Source of the DNA: a virus
Direction: 5' to 3' (one strand)
DNA length: 64,000 nucleotides
IMG/VR virus record: IMGVR_UViG_3300027747_002198
Span: 64,001-128,000 of that record
This document shows, in pieces, positions 3,633 to 27,950 of the stretch. Under the pieces are notes generated by a model. It was given only the letters and a program-made list of their open reading frames with translations, was not told where the DNA came from and searched no databases. Within the stretch, counting starts at the first letter, position 1; every line of letters begins with the position of its first letter. The position numbers and the translations under genes are program-made.

Positions 3633-4067
3633 ATGGAAAATCTAGAACAAGTATTAGAAAATTGGAAGCGTGATGCAGAAATTGACCAGACCGAACCTGG
3701 TAAAGAACTCATTCGTATTCCACTTCTTCACAACAAATATCTCACAATTCTCACTAAACACAAAATTGCTTCCAAGAAGGCACATTTTGATTATCTCCGT
3801 ATGCGGAAGATTAAATGGGAATACTATACTGGTAAAATGTCGCAAGAAGAATTAGAAGAATATGGATGGCAGCCTTTTCAATTTACCCTCAAATCCGACA
3901 TTACTACATACTTAGAAGCTGATGCAGATTTGATTAAACTACTTGAAAAGAAAGTTTATCATGAAGAAGTAGTATCGGTAATTGAATCAATAATGAGCGA
4001 ATTAAAATCAAGAACATTTCAGTTAAAAGATTTTATTTCTTGGGAAAAATTTATAGGAGGACAATAA
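3633..4067 (+). CDS. uvsY: recombination mediator
   Basis: IPLLHNKYL, KWEYYTGK, YLEADADL motifs; upstream of uvsW. Confidence 0.92.
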   Translation: MENLEQVLENWKRDAEIDQTEPGKELIRIPLLHNKYLTILTKHKIASKKAHFDYLRMRKIKWEYYTGKMSQEELEEYGWQPFQFTLKSDITTYLEADADLIKLLEKKVYHEEVVSVIESIMSELKSRTFQLKDFISWEKFIGGQ

Positions 4068-4261: not shown

Positions 4262-4798
4262 ATGTCATCATTAGCGGAAATTTATAAAGAAAATATTGCA
4301 CGACATCCGTATCCATCCGACAAAGGTAGAACACATTGTTATATTGACGAATATTATAACAACGCCTTTGAGTCGTGGCGAAATACCACAAACAACGTTT
4401 TAGAAATTGGTATTCACCATGGTTCTTGTATGGAAATCTGGCGTGAATATTTTGCCAAGGCCAACAAAGTATATGGTGTGGATATTCTAGACCATGGTGT
4501 CCATGTTGAAGGATGTACTTTGGTTTATGGTGATGCTACAAAGCCAGAAACTTTTACTGGCATGGGTAACTTTGATGTAATCATTGATGATGGTTCACAT
4601 TTAACTCCAGATCAAATTAAAACATTTGAAATTTTATTTCCAATGTTAAACAAAGGCGGTGTTTATGTTATTGAAGATATACAAAAATTGGATGAGGAGC
4701 GGCAACAATACCTTTCTTTGTACCCAAATGTTAATATTGTTGATTTGCGTAGCGTCAATGGTTGGTATGATGATGTTATTATAGAATATATTAAATGA
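4262..4798 (+). CDS. class I SAM-dependent methyltransferase
   Basis: VLEIGIHHG motif I, FDVIIDDGSH, GGVYVIED. Confidence 0.85.
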   Translation: MSSLAEIYKENIARHPYPSDKGRTHCYIDEYYNNAFESWRNTTNNVLEIGIHHGSCMEIWREYFAKANKVYGVDILDHGVHVEGCTLVYGDATKPETFTGMGNFDVIIDDGSHLTPDQIKTFEILFPMLNKGGVYVIEDIQKLDEERQQYLSLYPNVNIVDLRSVNGWYDDVIIEYIK

Positions 4799-6288
4799 CA
4801 TTCGATATTACTGTAAATAAAAAAGATGAAGTACATGCCAAAATAAATTGTGAAAAACATATAGCAAAAGAGTTATCTGAGTATTTTACATTCTTTGTTC
4901 CAGGCTATCAATTTGTTCCTGCCTATCGTAATCGAATTTGGGATGGAAAGATAAGACTTTTTAATTTACAGAGTTCCACTTTATATCTTGGACTCATGCA
5001 TTATTTGCAATTGTTTTGTGAAGAGCGTGAATATTCTATTGAGTACCAAGATAACATTGATGTTGAAAATGAATATTCATTATATCACGCCAAAAAATTT
5101 ATTCAAGATTTAAACATACATTCTCGTGGTGAACAAATAGAAGTAAGAGATTATCAAATAGATTCGTTTGTTCATGCCATGCAACGTAAGCGAGCATTGT
5201 TGTTATCTCCTACCGCTTCTGGTAAATCCCTCATCATATATCTTATTTTTCGTCAATTATGCCAATATCAAAAACTTAAAGGTCTTATAATTGTTCCCAC
5301 CACTTCTTTGGTTGAGCAGTTATTTTCTGACTTTGGTGATTATAATGATGGCAGTATGGAGGAACAAATTCATCGTATTTACCAAGGCAAAGAAAAAACC
5401 ACAGACAAACCTTTGACAATATCCACTTGGCAGTCATTGTATAAAATGCCAAAAGAATATTTTGAACAATTTGATTATGTAATTGGTGATGAGGCACATA
5501 ACTTTAAAGCACAGTCACTTACCTCTATACTTACATCCTGTGTAAATGCTAAATATAGAATAGGACTTACAGGTACTTTAGATGGCACTAAAACACACAA
5601 ATTGGTATTAGAAGGTTTATTTGGTCCAGTTAAAAAAGTTATTAGTACTAAAGAATTAATTGATAATCAACAAGTATCGCAGTTTGAAATTAAATGTTTA
5701 GTATTAAAACATTCAGATGAAATTGCCAAAGAGTATAAACAAAAGTCGTATCAAGATGAAATACAGTATCTAATTTCTAATGAAGGACGAAATAAATTCA
5801 TTAAGAATCTTGCGGTTAGCCTTGGTAATAATACATTAATATTATATCAAATGGTTGAAAAGCACGGAGAGGTCCTGTATAATATGATAAAGGATACAAA
5901 GAAAATTGGCAACAGAAAAGTTTTCTTTGTCCACGGTGGAACAGAAACTTCTGACCGTGAAGAAATCAGAAGAATTATGGAGATAGAAAATGATGCAATT
6001 ATCGTGGCCTCTTTTGGTACTTTTTCTACTGGAATTAATATTAGGAATCTTCATAATATTATATTCGCTATGCCAACTAAGTCCACAATTAGGACTTTGC
6101 AAAGCATTGGAAGAGGCCTTAGACAAGCTGATGGAAAAGATATAGCAACATTATATGATATTGCTGACGACATGAGAGTTGGTAAACATATGAACTTTAC
6201 ACTTAAACATTTTGTGGAAAGAGTAAAAATTTATAATGAAGAAAAGTTTCCGTATAAAATGTATAAGATAGGACTAAAAGATGAGTAA
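4795..6288 (+). CDS. uvsW: SF2 DNA helicase
   Basis: SPTASGKS Walker A, DEAH, GLTGT, LQSIGRGLR. Confidence 0.96.
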   Translation: MTFDITVNKKDEVHAKINCEKHIAKELSEYFTFFVPGYQFVPAYRNRIWDGKIRLFNLQSSTLYLGLMHYLQLFCEEREYSIEYQDNIDVENEYSLYHAKKFIQDLNIHSRGEQIEVRDYQIDSFVHAMQRKRALLLSPTASGKSLIIYLIFRQLCQYQKLKGLIIVPTTSLVEQLFSDFGDYNDGSMEEQIHRIYQGKEKTTDKPLTISTWQSLYKMPKEYFEQFDYVIGDEAHNFKAQSLTSILTSCVNAKYRIGLTGTLDGTKTHKLVLEGLFGPVKKVISTKELIDNQQVSQFEIKCLVLKHSDEIAKEYKQKSYQDEIQYLISNEGRNKFIKNLAVSLGNNTLILYQMVEKHGEVLYNMIKDTKKIGNRKVFFVHGGTETSDREEIRRIMEIENDAIIVASFGTFSTGINIRNLHNIIFAMPTKSTIRTLQSIGRGLRQADGKDIATLYDIADDMRVGKHMNFTLKHFVERVKIYNEEKFPYKMYKIGLKDE

Positions 6289-21002: not shown

Positions 21003-21628
21003 TGGAAAGTTTTAGAACTTTTACCATGTACGGAACATCAGAATCAAACACTTCAATTCAAGTTATGGTCGATGGTGTTATTTGTAAAAATGGAGTAGTT
21101 GAGGGTAATAACTTATTTTCTTTTCAGAATAATGTTAAAACCCACGGCAAAGTAGAAGTCAAAATACAGGTAAATAGTGGTAGTATAACACTTGGAAAAA
21201 CCATGGTAACATATCCTACATTATATGCAAAAAATGCATTTGCAAAATATAACAAAGGAACGATAACTTTTCCACAACCTTTTCAATCAAAATATGTATT
21301 TAATTCTGGTATATTAACTAAATTTGATCCGAATACAATTACCATAAAAGACCATTTTCAATTTGACCATGTAACATTTAATGGTCCTAATAATTTTTTA
21401 TTGTTATCAGAGAATGATTTGGAACCAAATTTAAATTTAGATAATTTTTATTTTTATAATAGTGATGATAGTAAAAATTTAAAAATTTTACCAATCTATA
21501 ATTATAAAAATGTTTATGTAAGTTGGTCATCAAAACAAGATAATTTAAAGTGTTTAGATATATTATTAACTGAAATATATGGAACATTTGGGCCGGTAGC
21601 TCAGTTGGTTAGAGCAGAGGACTCATAA
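21002..21628 (+). CDS. hypothetical protein, 3' end overlaps tRNA
   Basis: 208-aa very AT-rich ORF; stop lies in the tRNA anticodon loop. Confidence 0.55.
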   Translation: MESFRTFTMYGTSESNTSIQVMVDGVICKNGVVEGNNLFSFQNNVKTHGKVEVKIQVNSGSITLGKTMVTYPTLYAKNAFAKYNKGTITFPQPFQSKYVFNSGILTKFDPNTITIKDHFQFDHVTFNGPNNFLLLSENDLEPNLNLDNFYFYNSDDSKNLKILPIYNYKNVYVSWSSKQDNLKCLDILLTEIYGTFGPVAQLVRAEDS

Positions 21629-21666
21629 TCCTTTGGTCGAAGGTTCAAATCCTTCTCGGCCCACCA
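21590..21666 (+). tRNA. tRNA with CAT anticodon, probably Ile2 (lysidine-type)
   Basis: Full cloverleaf GGGCCGG...TCGGCCC-ACCA, loop CTCATAA; body resembles bacterial tRNA-Ile2 rather than Met. Confidence 0.85.
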
Positions 21667-21690: not shown

Positions 21691-22053
21691 ATGGAACATT
21701 GGGGAAAACACCTAATTATCGATGCCAAAGGCTGCGATATACAAAGAGCAAATGATCCAGAATATATCAAACATTTTACCAAAGAATTGGTAAGATTGAT
21801 TGAGATGGTTCCTTTTGGTGAACCACAAGTTGTCCATTTTGCGGATGGTGGCGACAAATCTGGATGGACTATGATACAGTTGATTGAAACATCAAACGTC
21901 ATAGGGCACTTCCTAGACCATAATGGAGACCTTTACCTTGATGTATTCAGTTGTAAAGATTTTTCGGAGCATACGGTTATAGGCGCTTTAAAGATGTTCT
22001 TTTCACCAGGTGAAATTAAACATCAAGTCATTTGGAGAGATGCTCGTAACTAA
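21691..22053 (+). CDS. speD: S-adenosylmethionine decarboxylase proenzyme
   Basis: WGKHLIID, LIETSN (self-cleavage Ser), YLDVFSCK. Confidence 0.8.
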   Translation: MEHWGKHLIIDAKGCDIQRANDPEYIKHFTKELVRLIEMVPFGEPQVVHFADGGDKSGWTMIQLIETSNVIGHFLDHNGDLYLDVFSCKDFSEHTVIGALKMFFSPGEIKHQVIWRDARN

Positions 22054-22122: not shown

Positions 22123-22635
22123 ATGCAGTTAAGTATAGTCGGTTGTCCCGATAAAAAACATTTCCGGCCGTATGTTAAAAGAGCGGCGCTATTTTACGCA
22201 CAAGAACTTATAAAACCTAAGATGTTGGAAAACATCTTTTTAAGAATTAAATTCAATAGTAAAATGAATGTATACGGATATGCTGAGATTTTAGAGTATA
22301 ATGAAAGCCGTAAAGCAAGAGAATTTCAAATAGAATTAAATCCAAACATTGGTGCGGCAGAAATATTAAAGTGTTTGGCACATGAAATGACCCATATTAA
22401 ACAATACGCTTACAATGAAACCAACGAAACCTTAACTCGTTGGAAAGGTATAAGAGTTGATTCTGATGTGGTAGATTATTGGGTTCAACCATGGGAAATA
22501 GAAGCATTTGGTAGAGAAGTCGGTCTATTTGCCAAGTTTGCAATTAAAGAAAAACTTTGGGATGTATTTTATGGAGTACAAAATCCTGATGGAGCAATAG
22601 AAATTGAAGAATTAGGTTGGAAAGAGCCTATATAA
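22123..22635 (+). CDS. zinc metallopeptidase-like protein
   Basis: LAHEMTHIKQY (HExxH) and PWEIEA. Confidence 0.7.
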   Translation: MQLSIVGCPDKKHFRPYVKRAALFYAQELIKPKMLENIFLRIKFNSKMNVYGYAEILEYNESRKAREFQIELNPNIGAAEILKCLAHEMTHIKQYAYNETNETLTRWKGIRVDSDVVDYWVQPWEIEAFGREVGLFAKFAIKEKLWDVFYGVQNPDGAIEIEELGWKEPI

Positions 22636-22642
22636 AAGAACA

Positions 22643-22717
22643 ATGAAAAATTTACACATAACAACTTCCAATTATTATAATACATCAGGAACATGGTGTA
22701 GTGGGGTTCGTTTGTAA
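22643..22717 (+). CDS. putative attenuator leader peptide MKNLHITTSNYYNTSGTWCSGVRL
   Basis: 24-codon ORF with one TGG codon; its 3' end forms the 5' arm of an antiterminator. Confidence 0.6.
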   Translation: MKNLHITTSNYYNTSGTWCSGVRL

Positions 22718-22777
22718 ATTTTTAAGTAACACAGATTTATACGAACCCAAGTCTAAACAACTTGGGTTTTTTGTTTT
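22704..22777 (+). promoter_or_regulatory. attenuator: antiterminator (22704-22748) overlapping intrinsic terminator (22744-22777)
   Basis: GGGTTCGT pairs with ACGAACCC; AACCCAAGT-CTAAACA-ACTTGGGTT-TTTTGTTTT shares AACCC. Confidence 0.75.
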
Positions 22778-22781
22778 CCGT

Positions 22782-22855
22782 GGCCTGCTGGTGTAATGGT
22801 AGCACAAGGCACTCCAAACGCCTTGGTCGGGGTTCGATTCCCTGGTGGGACGCCA
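22782..22855 (+). tRNA. trnW: tRNA-Trp(CCA)
   Basis: Cloverleaf, anticodon loop CTCCAAA, TTCGATT T-loop, encoded CCA; weak acceptor stem. Confidence 0.85.
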
Positions 22856-22858
22856 ATG

Positions 22859-22913
22859 ATTGTAAAGTTAAAAAACTTTATTGTAAAGTTATTCGTAGTT
22901 GATTGTAAAGTTA
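22859..22913 (+). repeat. three direct repeats ATTGTAAAGTTA
   Basis: Copies at 22859, 22880 and 22902 (21-22 bp period). Confidence 0.85.
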
Positions 22914-22949
22914 AGGTGTTGTGTGGAAACAACAGTATCAAAATGTTAC

Positions 22950-22978
22950 TTGACAGAAAATAGTTTGTCTAGTATAAT
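22950..22978 (+). promoter_or_regulatory. consensus sigma70 promoter
   Basis: TTGACA-17-TATAAT upstream of tRNA-Tyr. Confidence 0.9.
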
Positions 22979-23074: not shown

Positions 23075-23181
23075 GATTGTTGTATCAAGTGTAATGATTG
23101 GGTTGAGGACTTCTCGGCCGACAACAACGGAGGTGGCCGTCCCGTTTACATAACGAGCCCCATATTTTTAAGGAGAGTATT

Positions 23182-23527: not shown

Positions 23528-23556
23528 TTGACAATGTGTATAAGTAATGTTATAGT
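23528..23556 (+). promoter_or_regulatory. sigma70-type promoter
   Basis: TTGACA-17-TATAGT with extended -10 TG. Confidence 0.75.
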
Positions 23557-23565
23557 ATTGAATAT

Positions 23566-23632
23566 GCGGTGTGTAATAGTACGATGTGAGATACCCTCTT
23601 ATATTATCTGAGCAAAGCAGACCACCGCTCCA
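23566..23632 (+). ncRNA. non-canonical tRNA-Gly-like RNA
   Basis: GCGGTG/CACCGC acceptor with TCCA end, but minimal D arm, long anticodon stem and no TTC T-loop. Confidence 0.6.
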
Positions 23633-24067: not shown

Positions 24068-24267
24068 TTGTTGAGAATGTGTGAAAAAGAGTAAGCAATC
24101 CTAACTGTTAAGGAATATCATCACCCTTGAGGTGTCCATCCGAGATCCGGAGATGACTGCTGGCTGAAGCAGTATGAAAGGTGTAATCAAGGGGAGGTCA
24201 GAGCATAGGACGGGTTAAAGACCGCACCGGCGAGAGCCTTTTAAACATAAAACAGTATTCTCAACAA
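24068..24267 (+). ncRNA. unidentified ~200-nt structured RNA
   Basis: Ends pair (TTGTTGAGAATG/TATTCTCAACAA); internal CCCTTGA/TCAAGGG and ACTGC/GCAGT stems; GC-rich; no long ORF. Confidence 0.55.
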
Positions 24268-24299
24268 TGACTATATACTTTATTACATAAGGAATTGAT

Positions 24300-24554
24300 A
24301 TGATAATCGTAGATGAAATGACACCAACAAAAGATAACATCATTGTGGATCGTATTGCTGGTGAAAAAGAAACAGAATCAGGAATTATTTTAAAATCATC
24401 CGATGGACCAGACCGTGCAAAAGTGATTGCTATTGGTCCTAAAGTTGATGAAGTTGAAGTTGGTGATGAAGTATTACTTAACTGGAATGGTGCAGTGAAA
24501 ATTGCTAATGAACGTTATGTAATCAAAATTGAACACGTTGTTTTAATTTATTAA
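24300..24554 (+). CDS. groES: co-chaperonin GroES-like (gp31 analogue)
   Basis: PTKDNIIV, ETESGIIL mobile loop, AIGPKVDEVEVGDEVL. Confidence 0.85.
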   Translation: MIIVDEMTPTKDNIIVDRIAGEKETESGIILKSSDGPDRAKVIAIGPKVDEVEVGDEVLLNWNGAVKIANERYVIKIEHVVLIY

Positions 24555-25415: not shown

Positions 25416-27950
25416 TTGAGTAACTTCTACACTAATGTACAATGCTTTGGTAGTAATATTCTCTATCGAGGCATTAAAGATGGTAAAAGAATAAAAGCAA
25501 GGATCGAGTATTCTCCATCTTTGTTTTTGCCGTCTAAAAGAATCACCAACTTCACCTCACTCGAAGGTGATTATCTCGACCAAAAAATCTTTGGTACCAT
25601 CCGTGAAGCGAGAGATTACATCAAGCAATTTGAAGGTGTTTCTGGTGGTGTGAAGATTTATGGTCAAACCCGTTTTGAGTATGCGTATATTGCAGACCAA
25701 CACACAGGTATGGTTGATTACGACCAAGATAAAGTTCTTATTGCTGTAGTCGATATTGAGGTCGGTTCTGAAAATGGATTCCCTGATCCATACAAAGCAA
25801 ACGAACCAATCACAGCTATTTGTATCAAATATGTCAATGGTCCAACTTATGTGTTTGCTTGTGGTGATTATGTTAAACAAGGTGATGAGAATTATGTGAA
25901 ATGTAAAGACGAATATTCTATTTGCAAACAATTTATGGCTTTGTGGACAAATAAATGTCCTGATATTCTAACTGGTTGGAATACTAAGTTTTTTGATGAG
26001 CCTTATTTGATTAATCGTTTCCGTAAAATTCTTGGTGAAGATGAAACCAAGAAACTTTCTCCATGGAATTATATTGGCGAGCGTAAAACAACAATCAATG
26101 GACGCCAGTTAATTGCCTATAACCTGATGGGTGTTGAATCACTCGATTATATTGAATTGTATAAGTGGTATGCTCCTGGCGGAAAGTCACAAGAATCCTA
26201 TCGTTTAGATGCCATTGCTCAAGTCGAATTGGGTGAAGGCAAAATCTCTTATGATGAATATGATAACTTGCACTCATTGTATCGATTAAACTTCCAAAAA
26301 TTTATTGAGTATAATATCAAAGACGTTGAACTCATTATTAAACTTGAAGAAAAGTTAAAGTTACTCGAATTGGGAATAACTTTGGCCTATGATACCAAAA
26401 CAAACTTTGAAGATATCTTTGCTCAAACTCGTATGTGGGATTCTCTAACATATTCTTATCTGTTTGAAAAGAATATTATTGTTCCTCCTAGAATTACCAA
26501 AGAAAAAGATGGTATGTTTGAAGGTGCTTATGTTAAAGTACCACAAGTTGGTTTACATAATTGGGTTGCATCGTTTGACCTGAATAGTTTGTATCCGCAT
26601 TTGATGATGCAATACAATATTTCTCCTGAAACTTTGATTGAGCCTGAAAATTATTCAGATGAAATGCGTGAGATTTTATCTCAAGGTGTTTCTGTTGATA
26701 AGATGCTGTACAAAAATGTGGATACTTCCAAACTTAAAGGTGCAACTCTAACCCCTAATGGACAATTCTTCCGTACCGATATTCAAGGTTTCTTGCCCAA
26801 AATGATGGAAGAAATGTATACTGATAGAAAGAAGTTTAAGAAGTTAATGTTGCAGGCAAAACAGGAATATGAAAATGAAACTGATGAATCTAAAAAATAT
26901 GAAATTGAAAAGCGAATTGCTAAGTACAACAATATTCAGTTGGCCAAAAAAGTGTCCCTTAATAGTGCTTATGGTGCTTTGGGCTCTCAGTACTTCCGTT
27001 TTTATGATTTGCGTATGGCACTTGGTGTTACTACTGCTGGCCAACTTTCCATCAGGTGGATTGAAAATAAACTTAACGATTGGATGAACAATCTATTAAA
27101 AAGTGAGAAAGATTATGTTATTGCGTCCGATACTGATTCGATTTACCTCAACCTTGGTCCATTGGTTAATAGCATTGTTAAATCAAAGATTGAAACTCCT
27201 AAAGTTATCTCCATCATGGACCGTATTTGTGAGGATAAGATTCAACCTTATATTGACAAGAGTTATCAGGAGTTGGCAGAGTATGTGTGTGCATATTCTC
27301 AAAAGATGGAAATGAAACGTGAGGGTTTGTCCGATAAAGGAATCTGGACCGCCAAGAAGCGATATATTCTAAATGTTTATAACAATGAAGGTGTTCAATA
27401 TAACGAACCACAACTCAAGGTGATGGGTTTGGAGATGATTAAATCGTCTACACCATCGGTTGTTCGTGATAAGATGAAATCGCTTATTAAGATTCTTGTA
27501 TCTGGCACAGAAGATGATGTACAATCATTTATTGCAGAGTTTAGAGAACAATTTAAACATCTACCTGTAGAGGAGATATCTTTTCCTCGTGGTCTGAATG
27601 GGCTAAATACCTATTCACATGCGGTGACCTTATACACTAAAGGTACACCAATCCATGTAAAAGGTGCAATTCTATATAATCATAAATTGAAACAAATGGA
27701 ACTCACCAAAAAGTACCCACTCATTCAAGAAGGCGAGAAAGTTAAGTTTACTTATCTAAAAATGCCAAACACATTTAAAGATAGTGTTGTTTCATTTCCT
27801 AGTAGATTACCTGTCGAATTTGATTTACAAAAGTTTATTGATTATGATACACAATTCGAAAAAACATTCTTGGAACCGATCAAAGTAATTCTTGATTGTA
27901 TGGGATGGAAAACAGAAAAATGTAGTTCAATAGAGGACTTTTTCTCATGA
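25416..27950 (+). CDS. gp43: family B DNA polymerase
   Basis: DIEV exonuclease, SFDLNSLYP, KVSLNSAYG, SDTDS motifs; TTG start. Confidence 0.98.
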   Translation: MSNFYTNVQCFGSNILYRGIKDGKRIKARIEYSPSLFLPSKRITNFTSLEGDYLDQKIFGTIREARDYIKQFEGVSGGVKIYGQTRFEYAYIADQHTGMVDYDQDKVLIAVVDIEVGSENGFPDPYKANEPITAICIKYVNGPTYVFACGDYVKQGDENYVKCKDEYSICKQFMALWTNKCPDILTGWNTKFFDEPYLINRFRKILGEDETKKLSPWNYIGERKTTINGRQLIAYNLMGVESLDYIELYKWYAPGGKSQESYRLDAIAQVELGEGKISYDEYDNLHSLYRLNFQKFIEYNIKDVELIIKLEEKLKLLELGITLAYDTKTNFEDIFAQTRMWDSLTYSYLFEKNIIVPPRITKEKDGMFEGAYVKVPQVGLHNWVASFDLNSLYPHLMMQYNISPETLIEPENYSDEMREILSQGVSVDKMLYKNVDTSKLKGATLTPNGQFFRTDIQGFLPKMMEEMYTDRKKFKKLMLQAKQEYENETDESKKYEIEKRIAKYNNIQLAKKVSLNSAYGALGSQYFRFYDLRMALGVTTAGQLSIRWIENKLNDWMNNLLKSEKDYVIASDTDSIYLNLGPLVNSIVKSKIETPKVISIMDRICEDKIQPYIDKSYQELAEYVCAYSQKMEMKREGLSDKGIWTAKKRYILNVYNNEGVQYNEPQLKVMGLEMIKSSTPSVVRDKMKSLIKILVSGTEDDVQSFIAEFREQFKHLPVEEISFPRGLNGLNTYSHAVTLYTKGTPIHVKGAILYNHKLKQMELTKKYPLIQEGEKVKFTYLKMPNTFKDSVVSFPSRLPVEFDLQKFIDYDTQFEKTFLEPIKVILDCMGWKTEKCSSIEDFFS

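What the first reader, a model, noticed from the sequence alone, without database searches (positions are those of the whole stretch)
22643..22855. Leader-peptide attenuator controlling a phage tRNA-Trp gene (candidate tRNA-depletion sensor)
Seen in sequence: a 24-codon ORF (22643-22717, MKNLHITTSNYYNTSGTWCSGVRL) has a single TGG at 22694-22696. Its 3' end GGGTTCGT..GTAAATT (22704-22720) pairs with GATTTAT-ACGAACCC (22734-22748) as an antiterminator. That shares AACCC with a strong terminator, AACCCAAGT-loop-ACTTGGGTT-T-tract (22744-22777). tRNA-Trp(CCA) begins 5 nt later. Established: this is the layout of amino-acid operon attenuators such as trpL. Inference: a ribosome reaching the stop covers the antiterminator arm and causes termination. 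One stalled with TGG in the A site leaves the G run at about +14 from the P-site codon, just outside the entry channel, allowing readthrough into tRNA-Trp. The phage would then make replacement tRNA-Trp only when charged tRNA-Trp is short, for example after starvation or host anticodon-nuclease defence. Most codons just upstream (ATA, ACA x3, AAT, TAT TAT, GGA) also match this island's tRNAs (Ile2, Thr-TGT, Asn, Tyr, Gly-TCC), so the leader may audit the whole tRNA set. I know of no described ribosome-sensing attenuator controlling phage tRNA genes.
Basis: partly seen in the sequence, partly recalled or inferred. Interest (0 to 1): 0.93.

Follow-up and report, generated by a model that had tools for sequence, protein, structure and literature searches.

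The report
Leader-peptide attenuator gating phage tRNA-Trp
A tiny translated test gene wired to a switchable transcription stop sits in front of this phage's tryptophan tRNA gene, and related phages rewrite the test gene to match whichever tRNAs follow, so the phage probably makes spare tRNAs only when ribosomes read those codons slowly; I found no published account of this control for tRNA genes.

Summary
Observation confirmed at the stated coordinates; the attenuator reading is well supported by comparison but untested experimentally. In 22 homologous elements from related T4-like phages the ORF changes length only in whole codons and keeps TGG exactly seven codons before the stop. The terminator shows compensatory changes. 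Folding under a modelled ribosome flips from read-through to termination one codon after Trp (entry edge +11 to +13). Codons just before Trp track the tRNAs behind the terminator (p=5e-5; 0.002 within lineages). Across 32 unrelated leader clusters, leader amino acids match the downstream tRNAs (p=2e-4), and leaders of large arrays hold 19-20 amino acids. The same design occurs in cultured phiCbK-like Caulobacter phages, a ready test system. Correction: here only tRNA-Trp depends on the switch; the other tRNAs have their own promoter or lie upstream. Ten literature searches and Rfam found no description. This scan has noted the same system on much other DNA (124 notes, at least 103 genomes). 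No transcript, ribosome or host data; starvation versus anti-defence purpose is open.

The parts
22123..22635 (+). Upstream 170-aa gene of unknown function (HExxH motif); its stop overlaps the -10-like box and ends 7 nt before the leader ATG, so coupling or re-initiation is an alternative way to load the leader
22631..22636 (+). -10-like hexamer (TATAAA; TATAAT in most relatives) six nt before the ATG: probable leaderless start. No consensus -35 here; 6 of 22 relatives have a full TTGACA/T-17-TATAAT promoter at this place
   Evidence: start site inferred
22643..22717 (+). Leader ORF, 24 codons, ending W-x-x-G-V-R-L-stop
22646..22662 (+). Region 1 (protector arm); 22646-22656 is a perfect 11-nt complement of 22713-22723
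22681..22700 (+). Small inner hairpin that includes the Trp codon; present in most relatives with varying partners
22694..22696 (+). Trp codon, invariant in 22/22 homologues, last codon at which a stall leaves the antiterminator arm free in the model
22704..22723 (+). Region 2: antiterminator 5' arm, overlapping the last codons and the stop
22733..22752 (+). Region 3: pairs with region 2 (antiterminator) or region 4 (terminator)
22743..22777 (+). Intrinsic terminator 3:4 with U tract
22782..22855 (+). tRNA-Trp(CCA), the only tRNA between the terminator and the next promoter; stems covary among 15 homologues, 31:39 mispair is shared
22950..22978 (+). Consensus sigma70 promoter (12/12) that serves the downstream tRNA-Tyr, Thr, Gly, Asn, Met independently of the attenuator
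   Evidence: activity inferred
21590..21666 (+). tRNA(CAU), Ile2-like by C4/C5 and a paired 1:72 (own knowledge of TilS determinants); upstream of the leader, so not gated by it

Best explanation
A ribosome-mediated transcription attenuator of the trp/his/ilv type whose output is a tRNA gene. Host RNA polymerase transcribes the leader (from the -10-like box as a leaderless message, or by read-through from upstream genes; inferred). If the leader is not translated, region 1 pairs with region 2 and the terminator forms. If the ribosome runs past Trp it covers the G run of region 2 and the terminator forms. If it waits at Trp or at one of the codons just before it, region 2 pairs with region 3, the terminator cannot form and tRNA-Trp is made. 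The signal is slow decoding of those codons, whether from uncharged, cleaved or scarce tRNA, and the product is the missing tRNA: a negative feedback loop. Shown: sequence, conservation, pairing, codon-tRNA matching. Modelled: the switch point. Inferred: translation, start site, real termination and read-through, and the trigger. This copy is probably a reduced form of the all-20-amino-acid leaders of large arrays (same hairpins and G-V-R-x-stop end; such a leader stands at this position in the nearest relative).
For: ORF: ATG-to-arm distance is 54, 57, 60, 63 or 66 nt in 22 homologues while stop-to-terminator distance is 24-27 nt; stops in the other frames in 14 and 17 of 22. All 23 hits of a hairpin-only pattern with a tRNA within 500 nt have such an ORF; for three other patterns 102/108 with tRNA against 26/80 without, p=2e-20. 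TGG invariant while neighbouring positions show 4-10 different codons. Terminator 98.5% paired, two pairs swapped on both sides in 8 sequences each, 0/500 shuffles; upper antiterminator stem, not fixed by the search, 94% paired. Protector pairing present in all 22, median z -2.1. Folding: mean P(terminator) 0.17-0.30 with Trp in the A site, 0.76-1.0 one codon later, about 1 without ribosome in most. Codons in the 8 positions before Trp served by the proximal tRNA block: 37 against 18.4, p=5e-5; within 5' lineages p=0.002. Relatives picked by the neighbouring protein only: Trp leader with tRNA-Trp 5/5, no leader 3/38; the leader needs 5 changes on that protein's tree, at least 2 forced. Broad set, 32 clusters: 95% of block amino acids are in the leader against 73% permuted, p=2e-4; 14 of 22 leaders of large arrays hold 19-20 amino acids against about 15 expected. 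Same hairpin pattern finds Leu-, Ile/Val/Leu- and aromatic-rich leaders before leuA, a TPP enzyme of acetohydroxyacid-synthase type and DAHP synthase in bacteria. Out-of-sample: Caulobacter phages CcrBL9 and CcrSwift carry matched leaders, one with three-way compensatory change.
Against: If region 1 may pair around a stalled ribosome, the protector wins and P(terminator) at Trp is 0.85 on average, 1.0 in this copy (mode A); the model needs steric blocking or a trailing ribosome. With an entry edge of +14 or +15 Trp falls just past the switch (0.76-0.88). Only one Trp codon, where trpL has two. TGG also sits in a small hairpin. 3 of 20 informative homologues have no tRNA-Trp behind the leader (L350, L355, L365), and L053 has tRNA-Trp behind the terminator with no leader. 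The core of the antiterminator was fixed by the search pattern, so its conservation is circular. Anticodon-level matching is weak in the broad set (z 1.0-2.9) and fails in L372. No -35 in this copy.
Confidence: 0.82

Rival explanations
1. Translation-coupled attenuator that senses overall ribosome loading or speed rather than specific codons; TGG is kept for the inner hairpin or because it is slow, not to report tRNA-Trp.
For: TGG lies in a small hairpin in most homologues; large-array leaders contain nearly all amino acids and so report general slowing; three homologues keep TGG without tRNA-Trp; anticodon-level match is weak.
Against: The hairpin partner varies and the next codon changes with it (Cys, Gln, Arg, Phe) while TGG does not. 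Ala, Pro, His, Ser and Leu codons come and go with their tRNAs. In the Caulobacter pair the leader has Trp only where the block has tRNA-Trp.
Confidence: 0.1
2. A plain, leaky terminator ending the upstream operon; the ORF and the alternative hairpin are by-products.
For: No other plus-strand terminator between 19201 and 22743; several relatives have the terminator alone directly after the 170-aa gene (L006, L007, L053, L061, L076-L078).
Against: Does not explain frame-preserving indels, the invariant TGG, three mutually exclusive pairings, or codon-tRNA matching. Terminator-only relatives mostly lack tRNA-Trp.
Confidence: 0.03
3. The peptide itself acts: a TnaC-like arrest peptide sensing free tryptophan, or a small protein working in trans.
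For: 24 residues with a conserved Trp, as in TnaC (own knowledge); conserved G-V-R-L end.
Against: The conserved end is the antiterminator arm (single codons); the rest of the peptide varies freely and follows the tRNA set; arrest at the stop would cover region 2 and favour termination; no Pfam match.
Confidence: 0.04

Closest known systems
Leader-peptide attenuators of amino-acid operons (trpL, hisL, pheL, leuL; multivalent ilvGMEDA and thrL leaders)
   Same: Short ORF, alternative 1:2, 2:3 and 3:4 pairings, intrinsic terminator; stalling gives read-through, and no translation gives termination (his system as described in PMC4046918). The same hairpin pattern retrieves bacterial leu, ilv and aro leaders.
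   Different: Controls tRNA genes of a phage, not biosynthetic enzymes; one Trp codon at the last effective position rather than a run; region 1 lies 5' of the sensing codons; leader content follows the tRNA block, up to all 20 amino acids; probably leaderless.
pheM attenuator of the pheST operon (own knowledge)
   Same: Leader-peptide attenuation of a translation component, sensing charged tRNA.
   Different: Output is a synthetase protein in a host chromosome, single amino acid.
Anabaena trn operon, repressed by TrcR (PMC8421152, PMC10272220)
   Same: A tRNA array that is off by default and turned on under translational stress.
   Different: Control is by a DNA-binding repressor at initiation; 'attenuat' and 'leader' do not occur in PMC8421152; not codon specific.
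T-box riboswitches
   Same: Terminator/antiterminator switch that reports tRNA charging.
   Different: T-boxes bind tRNA directly without translation; no Rfam T-box match here and the element is a conserved ORF.
Phage tRNAs that counter anticodon nucleases (T5 tRNAs against PARIS/AriB, PMC12409363)
   Same: Phage tRNAs replace depleted host tRNAs, and the amount expressed matters.
   Different: No sensing mechanism is described; the T5 tRNA region is annotated with many promoters and showed no leader-terminator in my scan.

Membership tests
Leader-peptide transcription attenuator (trp/his/ilv type) | Short conserved ORF upstream of the controlled gene | tested here: met
Leader-peptide transcription attenuator (trp/his/ilv type) | Intrinsic terminator between leader and controlled gene | tested here: met
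   (sequence and covariation; termination itself not measured)
Leader-peptide transcription attenuator (trp/his/ilv type) | Antiterminator mutually exclusive with the terminator and overlapping the ORF end | tested here: met
   three-way compensatory change in the Caulobacter pair
Leader-peptide transcription attenuator (trp/his/ilv type) | Protector (1:2) structure giving termination without translation | tested here: met
Leader-peptide transcription attenuator (trp/his/ilv type) | Control codons cognate to the product of the controlled genes | tested here: met
   cognate to tRNAs instead of enzymes; single codon, not a run
Leader-peptide transcription attenuator (trp/his/ilv type) | Stall at the control codon frees region 2 while masking region 1 | tested here: inconclusive
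   met if nothing 5' of the entry site can pair and the edge is +11 to +13; not met if region 1 can pair around the ribosome or the edge is +14/15
Leader-peptide transcription attenuator (trp/his/ilv type) | Leader is translated and read-through responds to charged-tRNA level in vivo | not testable with these tools
T-box riboswitch | Stem I with specifier loop and T-box bulge | tested here: not met
   no Rfam match at gathering or E-value thresholds
TnaC-type arrest peptide | Conserved peptide sequence arresting at the stop, with Rho-dependent termination relieved by the stall | tested here: not met
   peptide varies; intrinsic terminator; ribosome at the stop favours termination

The most novel reading that the evidence does not exclude
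Phages carry a codon-programmable gauge of host tRNA supply: a leader written in the codons of the tRNAs behind it turns those tRNA genes on when decoding slows, and it serves as an inducible counter-defence against host tRNA-cleaving immune systems. This copy is the minimal, one-tRNA form.
Probability: 0.4. Interest if true: 0.95.

Novelty: new variant of a known kind. Interest (0 to 1): 0.85.

Why it matters
Why phages carry tRNA genes, and how they time them, is a long-open question that has become pressing since tRNA cleavage turned out to be a common antiphage defence. A leader that mirrors the tRNA set implies the phage measures decoding capacity and makes tRNA on demand, which favours the replacement hypothesis over constitutive codon-bias compensation and gives a direct test. 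It extends classical attenuation to tRNA genes and to viruses, explains unannotated mini-ORFs and terminators that stand before phage tRNA blocks, and offers compact reporters for depletion of chosen tRNAs. The one-tRNA, one-codon form here is the simplest to dissect; phiCbK-like phages on Caulobacter CB15 give a culturable system.

Tried and rejected
Rfam: no family other than tRNA in the window or in 20 homologous loci. Leader as a decayed copy of tRNA-Trp: two 11-nt likenesses to the D and T arms exist, but the tRNA T arm varies among relatives while the leader arm does not; rejected as chance. ORF as a promoter by-product: 10/12 promoter-like matches inside the ORF are at background level (46 found, 44.5 expected). 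First pattern without terminator and the 15-mer pattern gave mostly chance hits. One terminator pattern did not fit the window itself. No cultured phage matches the element or three metagenomic leaders by DNA; best DNA polymerase matches are about 50% identical cyanophages, so no host could be assigned. No leader-terminator found in the fetched tRNA regions of T5, Ac42, vB_OspM_OC, phiPMW, cr111_1 or the part of DSS3_MAL1 fetched. The one-clade test on the neighbour-gene tree did not finish. L022/L024 entered the broad set although their ORF is the tail of a long gene; one of 32 clusters. Proximal blocks of the narrow test were assigned by hand; the His tRNA of L040 was read by eye (that of L350 passes Rfam). 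Ten literature searches found no description; the phiCbK genome paper does not mention attenuation. The library lacks most subscription papers.

Full report
Setting. The window is bases 64001-128000 of a 161,799-bp virus record with seven tRNA genes, all in this window. Clamp-loader-like and regA-like ORFs (read by eye) upstream, the gp43-type DNA polymerase at 25416, sigma70 promoters and TATAAATA late-type boxes mark it as T4-like. It has no close cultured relative, so the host is unknown.

Observation. Of ten terminator-like sites in the whole genome it has the strongest alternative upstream pairing. Three further features matter. Bases 22646-22656 are a perfect complement of 22713-22723, a protector hairpin. 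A -10-like box ends six bases before the ATG and there is no clear Shine-Dalgarno sequence. A 12/12 sigma70 promoter at 22950 separates tRNA-Trp from the remaining tRNAs.

Close family. From relatives of the upstream gene and from hairpin patterns that do not presuppose an ORF I assembled 22 distinct homologues. The ATG-to-arm distance takes only the values 54, 57, 60, 63 and 66 nt, whereas the non-coding stop-to-terminator spacer takes 24-27 nt; the other two frames hold stops in 14 and 17 of 22. The ATG was looked for in frame with the arm, so the open frame is partly built in, but no element had to be dropped except one cut by a contig end, and all 23 hairpin-only hits with a tRNA within 500 nt have the ORF. 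TGG is invariant at seven codons before the stop while neighbouring positions show 4-10 codons. The terminator has two pairs swapped on both sides in eight sequences each. The antiterminator core was fixed by the search; its upper stem was not and is 94% paired. Region 1 pairs with region 2 in all 22 despite differing sequences (median z -2.1). Six homologues have a complete TTGACA/T-17-TATAAT promoter placing the start at or next to the ATG, which suggests leaderless translation. The tRNA-Trp genes covary in their stems and look maintained.

Switch geometry. Folding each leader with the ribosome as a mask gives termination without a ribosome (P about 1 in most), read-through when Trp or an earlier codon is in the A site (mean P 0.17-0.30) and termination from the next codon on (0.76-1.0), for an entry edge of +11 to +13. 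That range is my recollection of the helicase position on the bacterial ribosome. With +14 or +15 the switch moves one codon earlier, and if region 1 may pair around the ribosome the protector wins (mean 0.85 at Trp). So Trp stands at or next to the last effective position; the model needs steric blocking or a second ribosome on region 1, which a leaderless 24-codon ORF could hold (inference).

Codons follow tRNAs. Seventeen of 20 informative homologues have tRNA-Trp behind the terminator. The tRNAs that accompany it vary (Ala, Ser, Pro, His, Leu), and so do the eight codons before Trp: 37 served codons against 18.4 on permutation (p=5e-5), and p=0.002 when permuting only within 5' lineages (blocks assigned by hand). 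Among relatives chosen by the neighbouring protein alone, 5/5 with the Trp leader have tRNA-Trp against 3/38 without a leader; on that protein's tree the leader needs five changes, at least two forced by well-supported branches, and is interleaved with all-20 leaders and with none. The module is therefore gained, lost or swapped repeatedly. Exceptions: L350 (His, Leu, Arg, no Trp), L355 and L365 (block deleted), L053 (tRNA-Trp, no leader), L372 (Leu matches by amino acid but not by anticodon).

Wider family. Three other hairpin patterns show an ORF ending across the arm in 102 of 108 hits with a tRNA downstream and 26 of 80 without. Over 32 peptide clusters below 40% identity, 95% of the block's amino acids occur in the sensing part of the leader against 73% permuted, and for blocks of ten or fewer amino acids 27% of leader codons are served against 13% (both p=2e-4). 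Leaders of large arrays hold a median of 19 amino acids against about 15 expected. Anticodon-level matching is only weakly above background (z 1.0-2.9). As a positive control, the window's own pattern retrieves from bacterial genomes Leu-rich, Ile/Val/Leu-rich and aromatic-rich leaders before leuA, an acetohydroxyacid-synthase-type gene and DAHP synthase. Scanning seven cultured phage tRNA regions, I found the design in Caulobacter phage CcrBL9: promoter, unannotated 32-codon ORF, terminator with a -33.6 kcal/mol alternative, then seven tRNAs each with a readable codon in the leader. It is conserved in 38 records of Caulobacter and Brevundimonas phages; CcrSwift differs by compensatory changes in arm and both terminator strands, and further blocks have their own matched mini-ORFs.

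What this copy controls. Leader codons 2-18 are enriched for those read by the genome's tRNAs (11/17; p about 0.01 against nucleotide shuffles), and no terminator was found between tRNA-Trp and tRNA-Tyr, so read-through may add to the downstream tRNAs. But those have their own promoters, occur in leaderless relatives, and the Ile2-like tRNA lies upstream. Only tRNA-Trp depends on the switch.

Known and new. It works like the trp/his/ilv attenuators and meets every sequence-testable defining feature, one inconclusively; translation and regulation are untested. It is not a T-box or a TnaC-type peptide. The nearest functional analogue for tRNA genes, the Anabaena trn operon, uses a repressor (PMC8421152, PMC10272220). 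Phage tRNAs are known to rescue infection from tRNA nucleases (PMC12409363), without a described sensor. Ten searches found no report of leader-peptide attenuation of tRNA genes; the library is incomplete. Earlier notes of this scan describe the same system in at least 103 genomes; they are unchecked AI notes, my reading was fixed before I saw them, and I do not count them as evidence.

Verdict. Real, conserved and very probably a ribosome-sensing attenuator of a phage tRNA gene (0.82). New variant of a known kind. Interest 0.85. The counter-defence reading is not excluded (0.4).

Noticed in passing
window 23566-23632 (+): 67-nt tRNA-like RNA with an acceptor-type stem and CCA end, just behind the promoter at 23528; z -2.7, no Rfam match, conserved with stem changes in many of the 80 relatives.
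   Followed up: partly
window 24068-24272 (+): About 200-nt GC-richer structured segment with a long closing stem directly after tRNA-Asn; no Rfam match; z -1.8.
   Followed up: partly
window 23075-23162 (+): Conserved non-coding segment after tRNA-Tyr ending in CCA, also seen in L012 and L021; folding energy not beyond shuffles.
   Followed up: partly
window 22857-22934 (+): Three 15-nt direct repeats at 21-22 nt spacing (rare in relatives, 2 of 80 loci) followed by a TGTTG-N8-CAACA-type palindrome before the 22950 promoter (30 of 80 loci): possible protein-binding site at tRNA promoters.
   Followed up: partly
   Followed up: partly
window 22782-22855 (+): tRNA-Trp has a 31:39 mispair shared by most homologues and a G2.A71 mismatch; anticodon-stem changes of this kind might affect nuclease cleavage (speculation).
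   Followed up: partly
L604:4280-5393; L608:1223-1308, 2104-2333, 4507-4663; L605:2688-2753, 3708-3827: Codon-matched leaders before tRNA blocks in cultured Caulobacter phages CcrBL9 and CcrSwift; a practical test system.
   Followed up: yes
L022 and L024, about 4975-5040: tRNA-Trp behind the same terminator, with the antiterminator arm in the last codons of a long upstream gene instead of a separate leader.
   Followed up: no
L243, L284, L459, L483, L486, L562: Leaders of the all-amino-acid type with no tRNA detected within 500 nt of the terminator; what they control was not examined.
   Followed up: no
L423, L427, L436 and Planctomycete loci L420-L448: Classical-looking amino-acid attenuators (Leu-rich, Met/Cys-rich, aromatic-rich) in Planctomycetota, Balneolaceae, Fibrobacteres and a Patescibacteria MAG.
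   Followed up: partly
window 21691-22053 and 24300-24554 (+): S-adenosylmethionine decarboxylase and GroES-like genes inside the tRNA island; homospermidine-synthase-like gene (read by eye) at the same place in L022-L025.
   Followed up: no
L606:380-636: Very long hairpin before a tRNA-Met in CcrBL9 without a short ORF.
   Followed up: no
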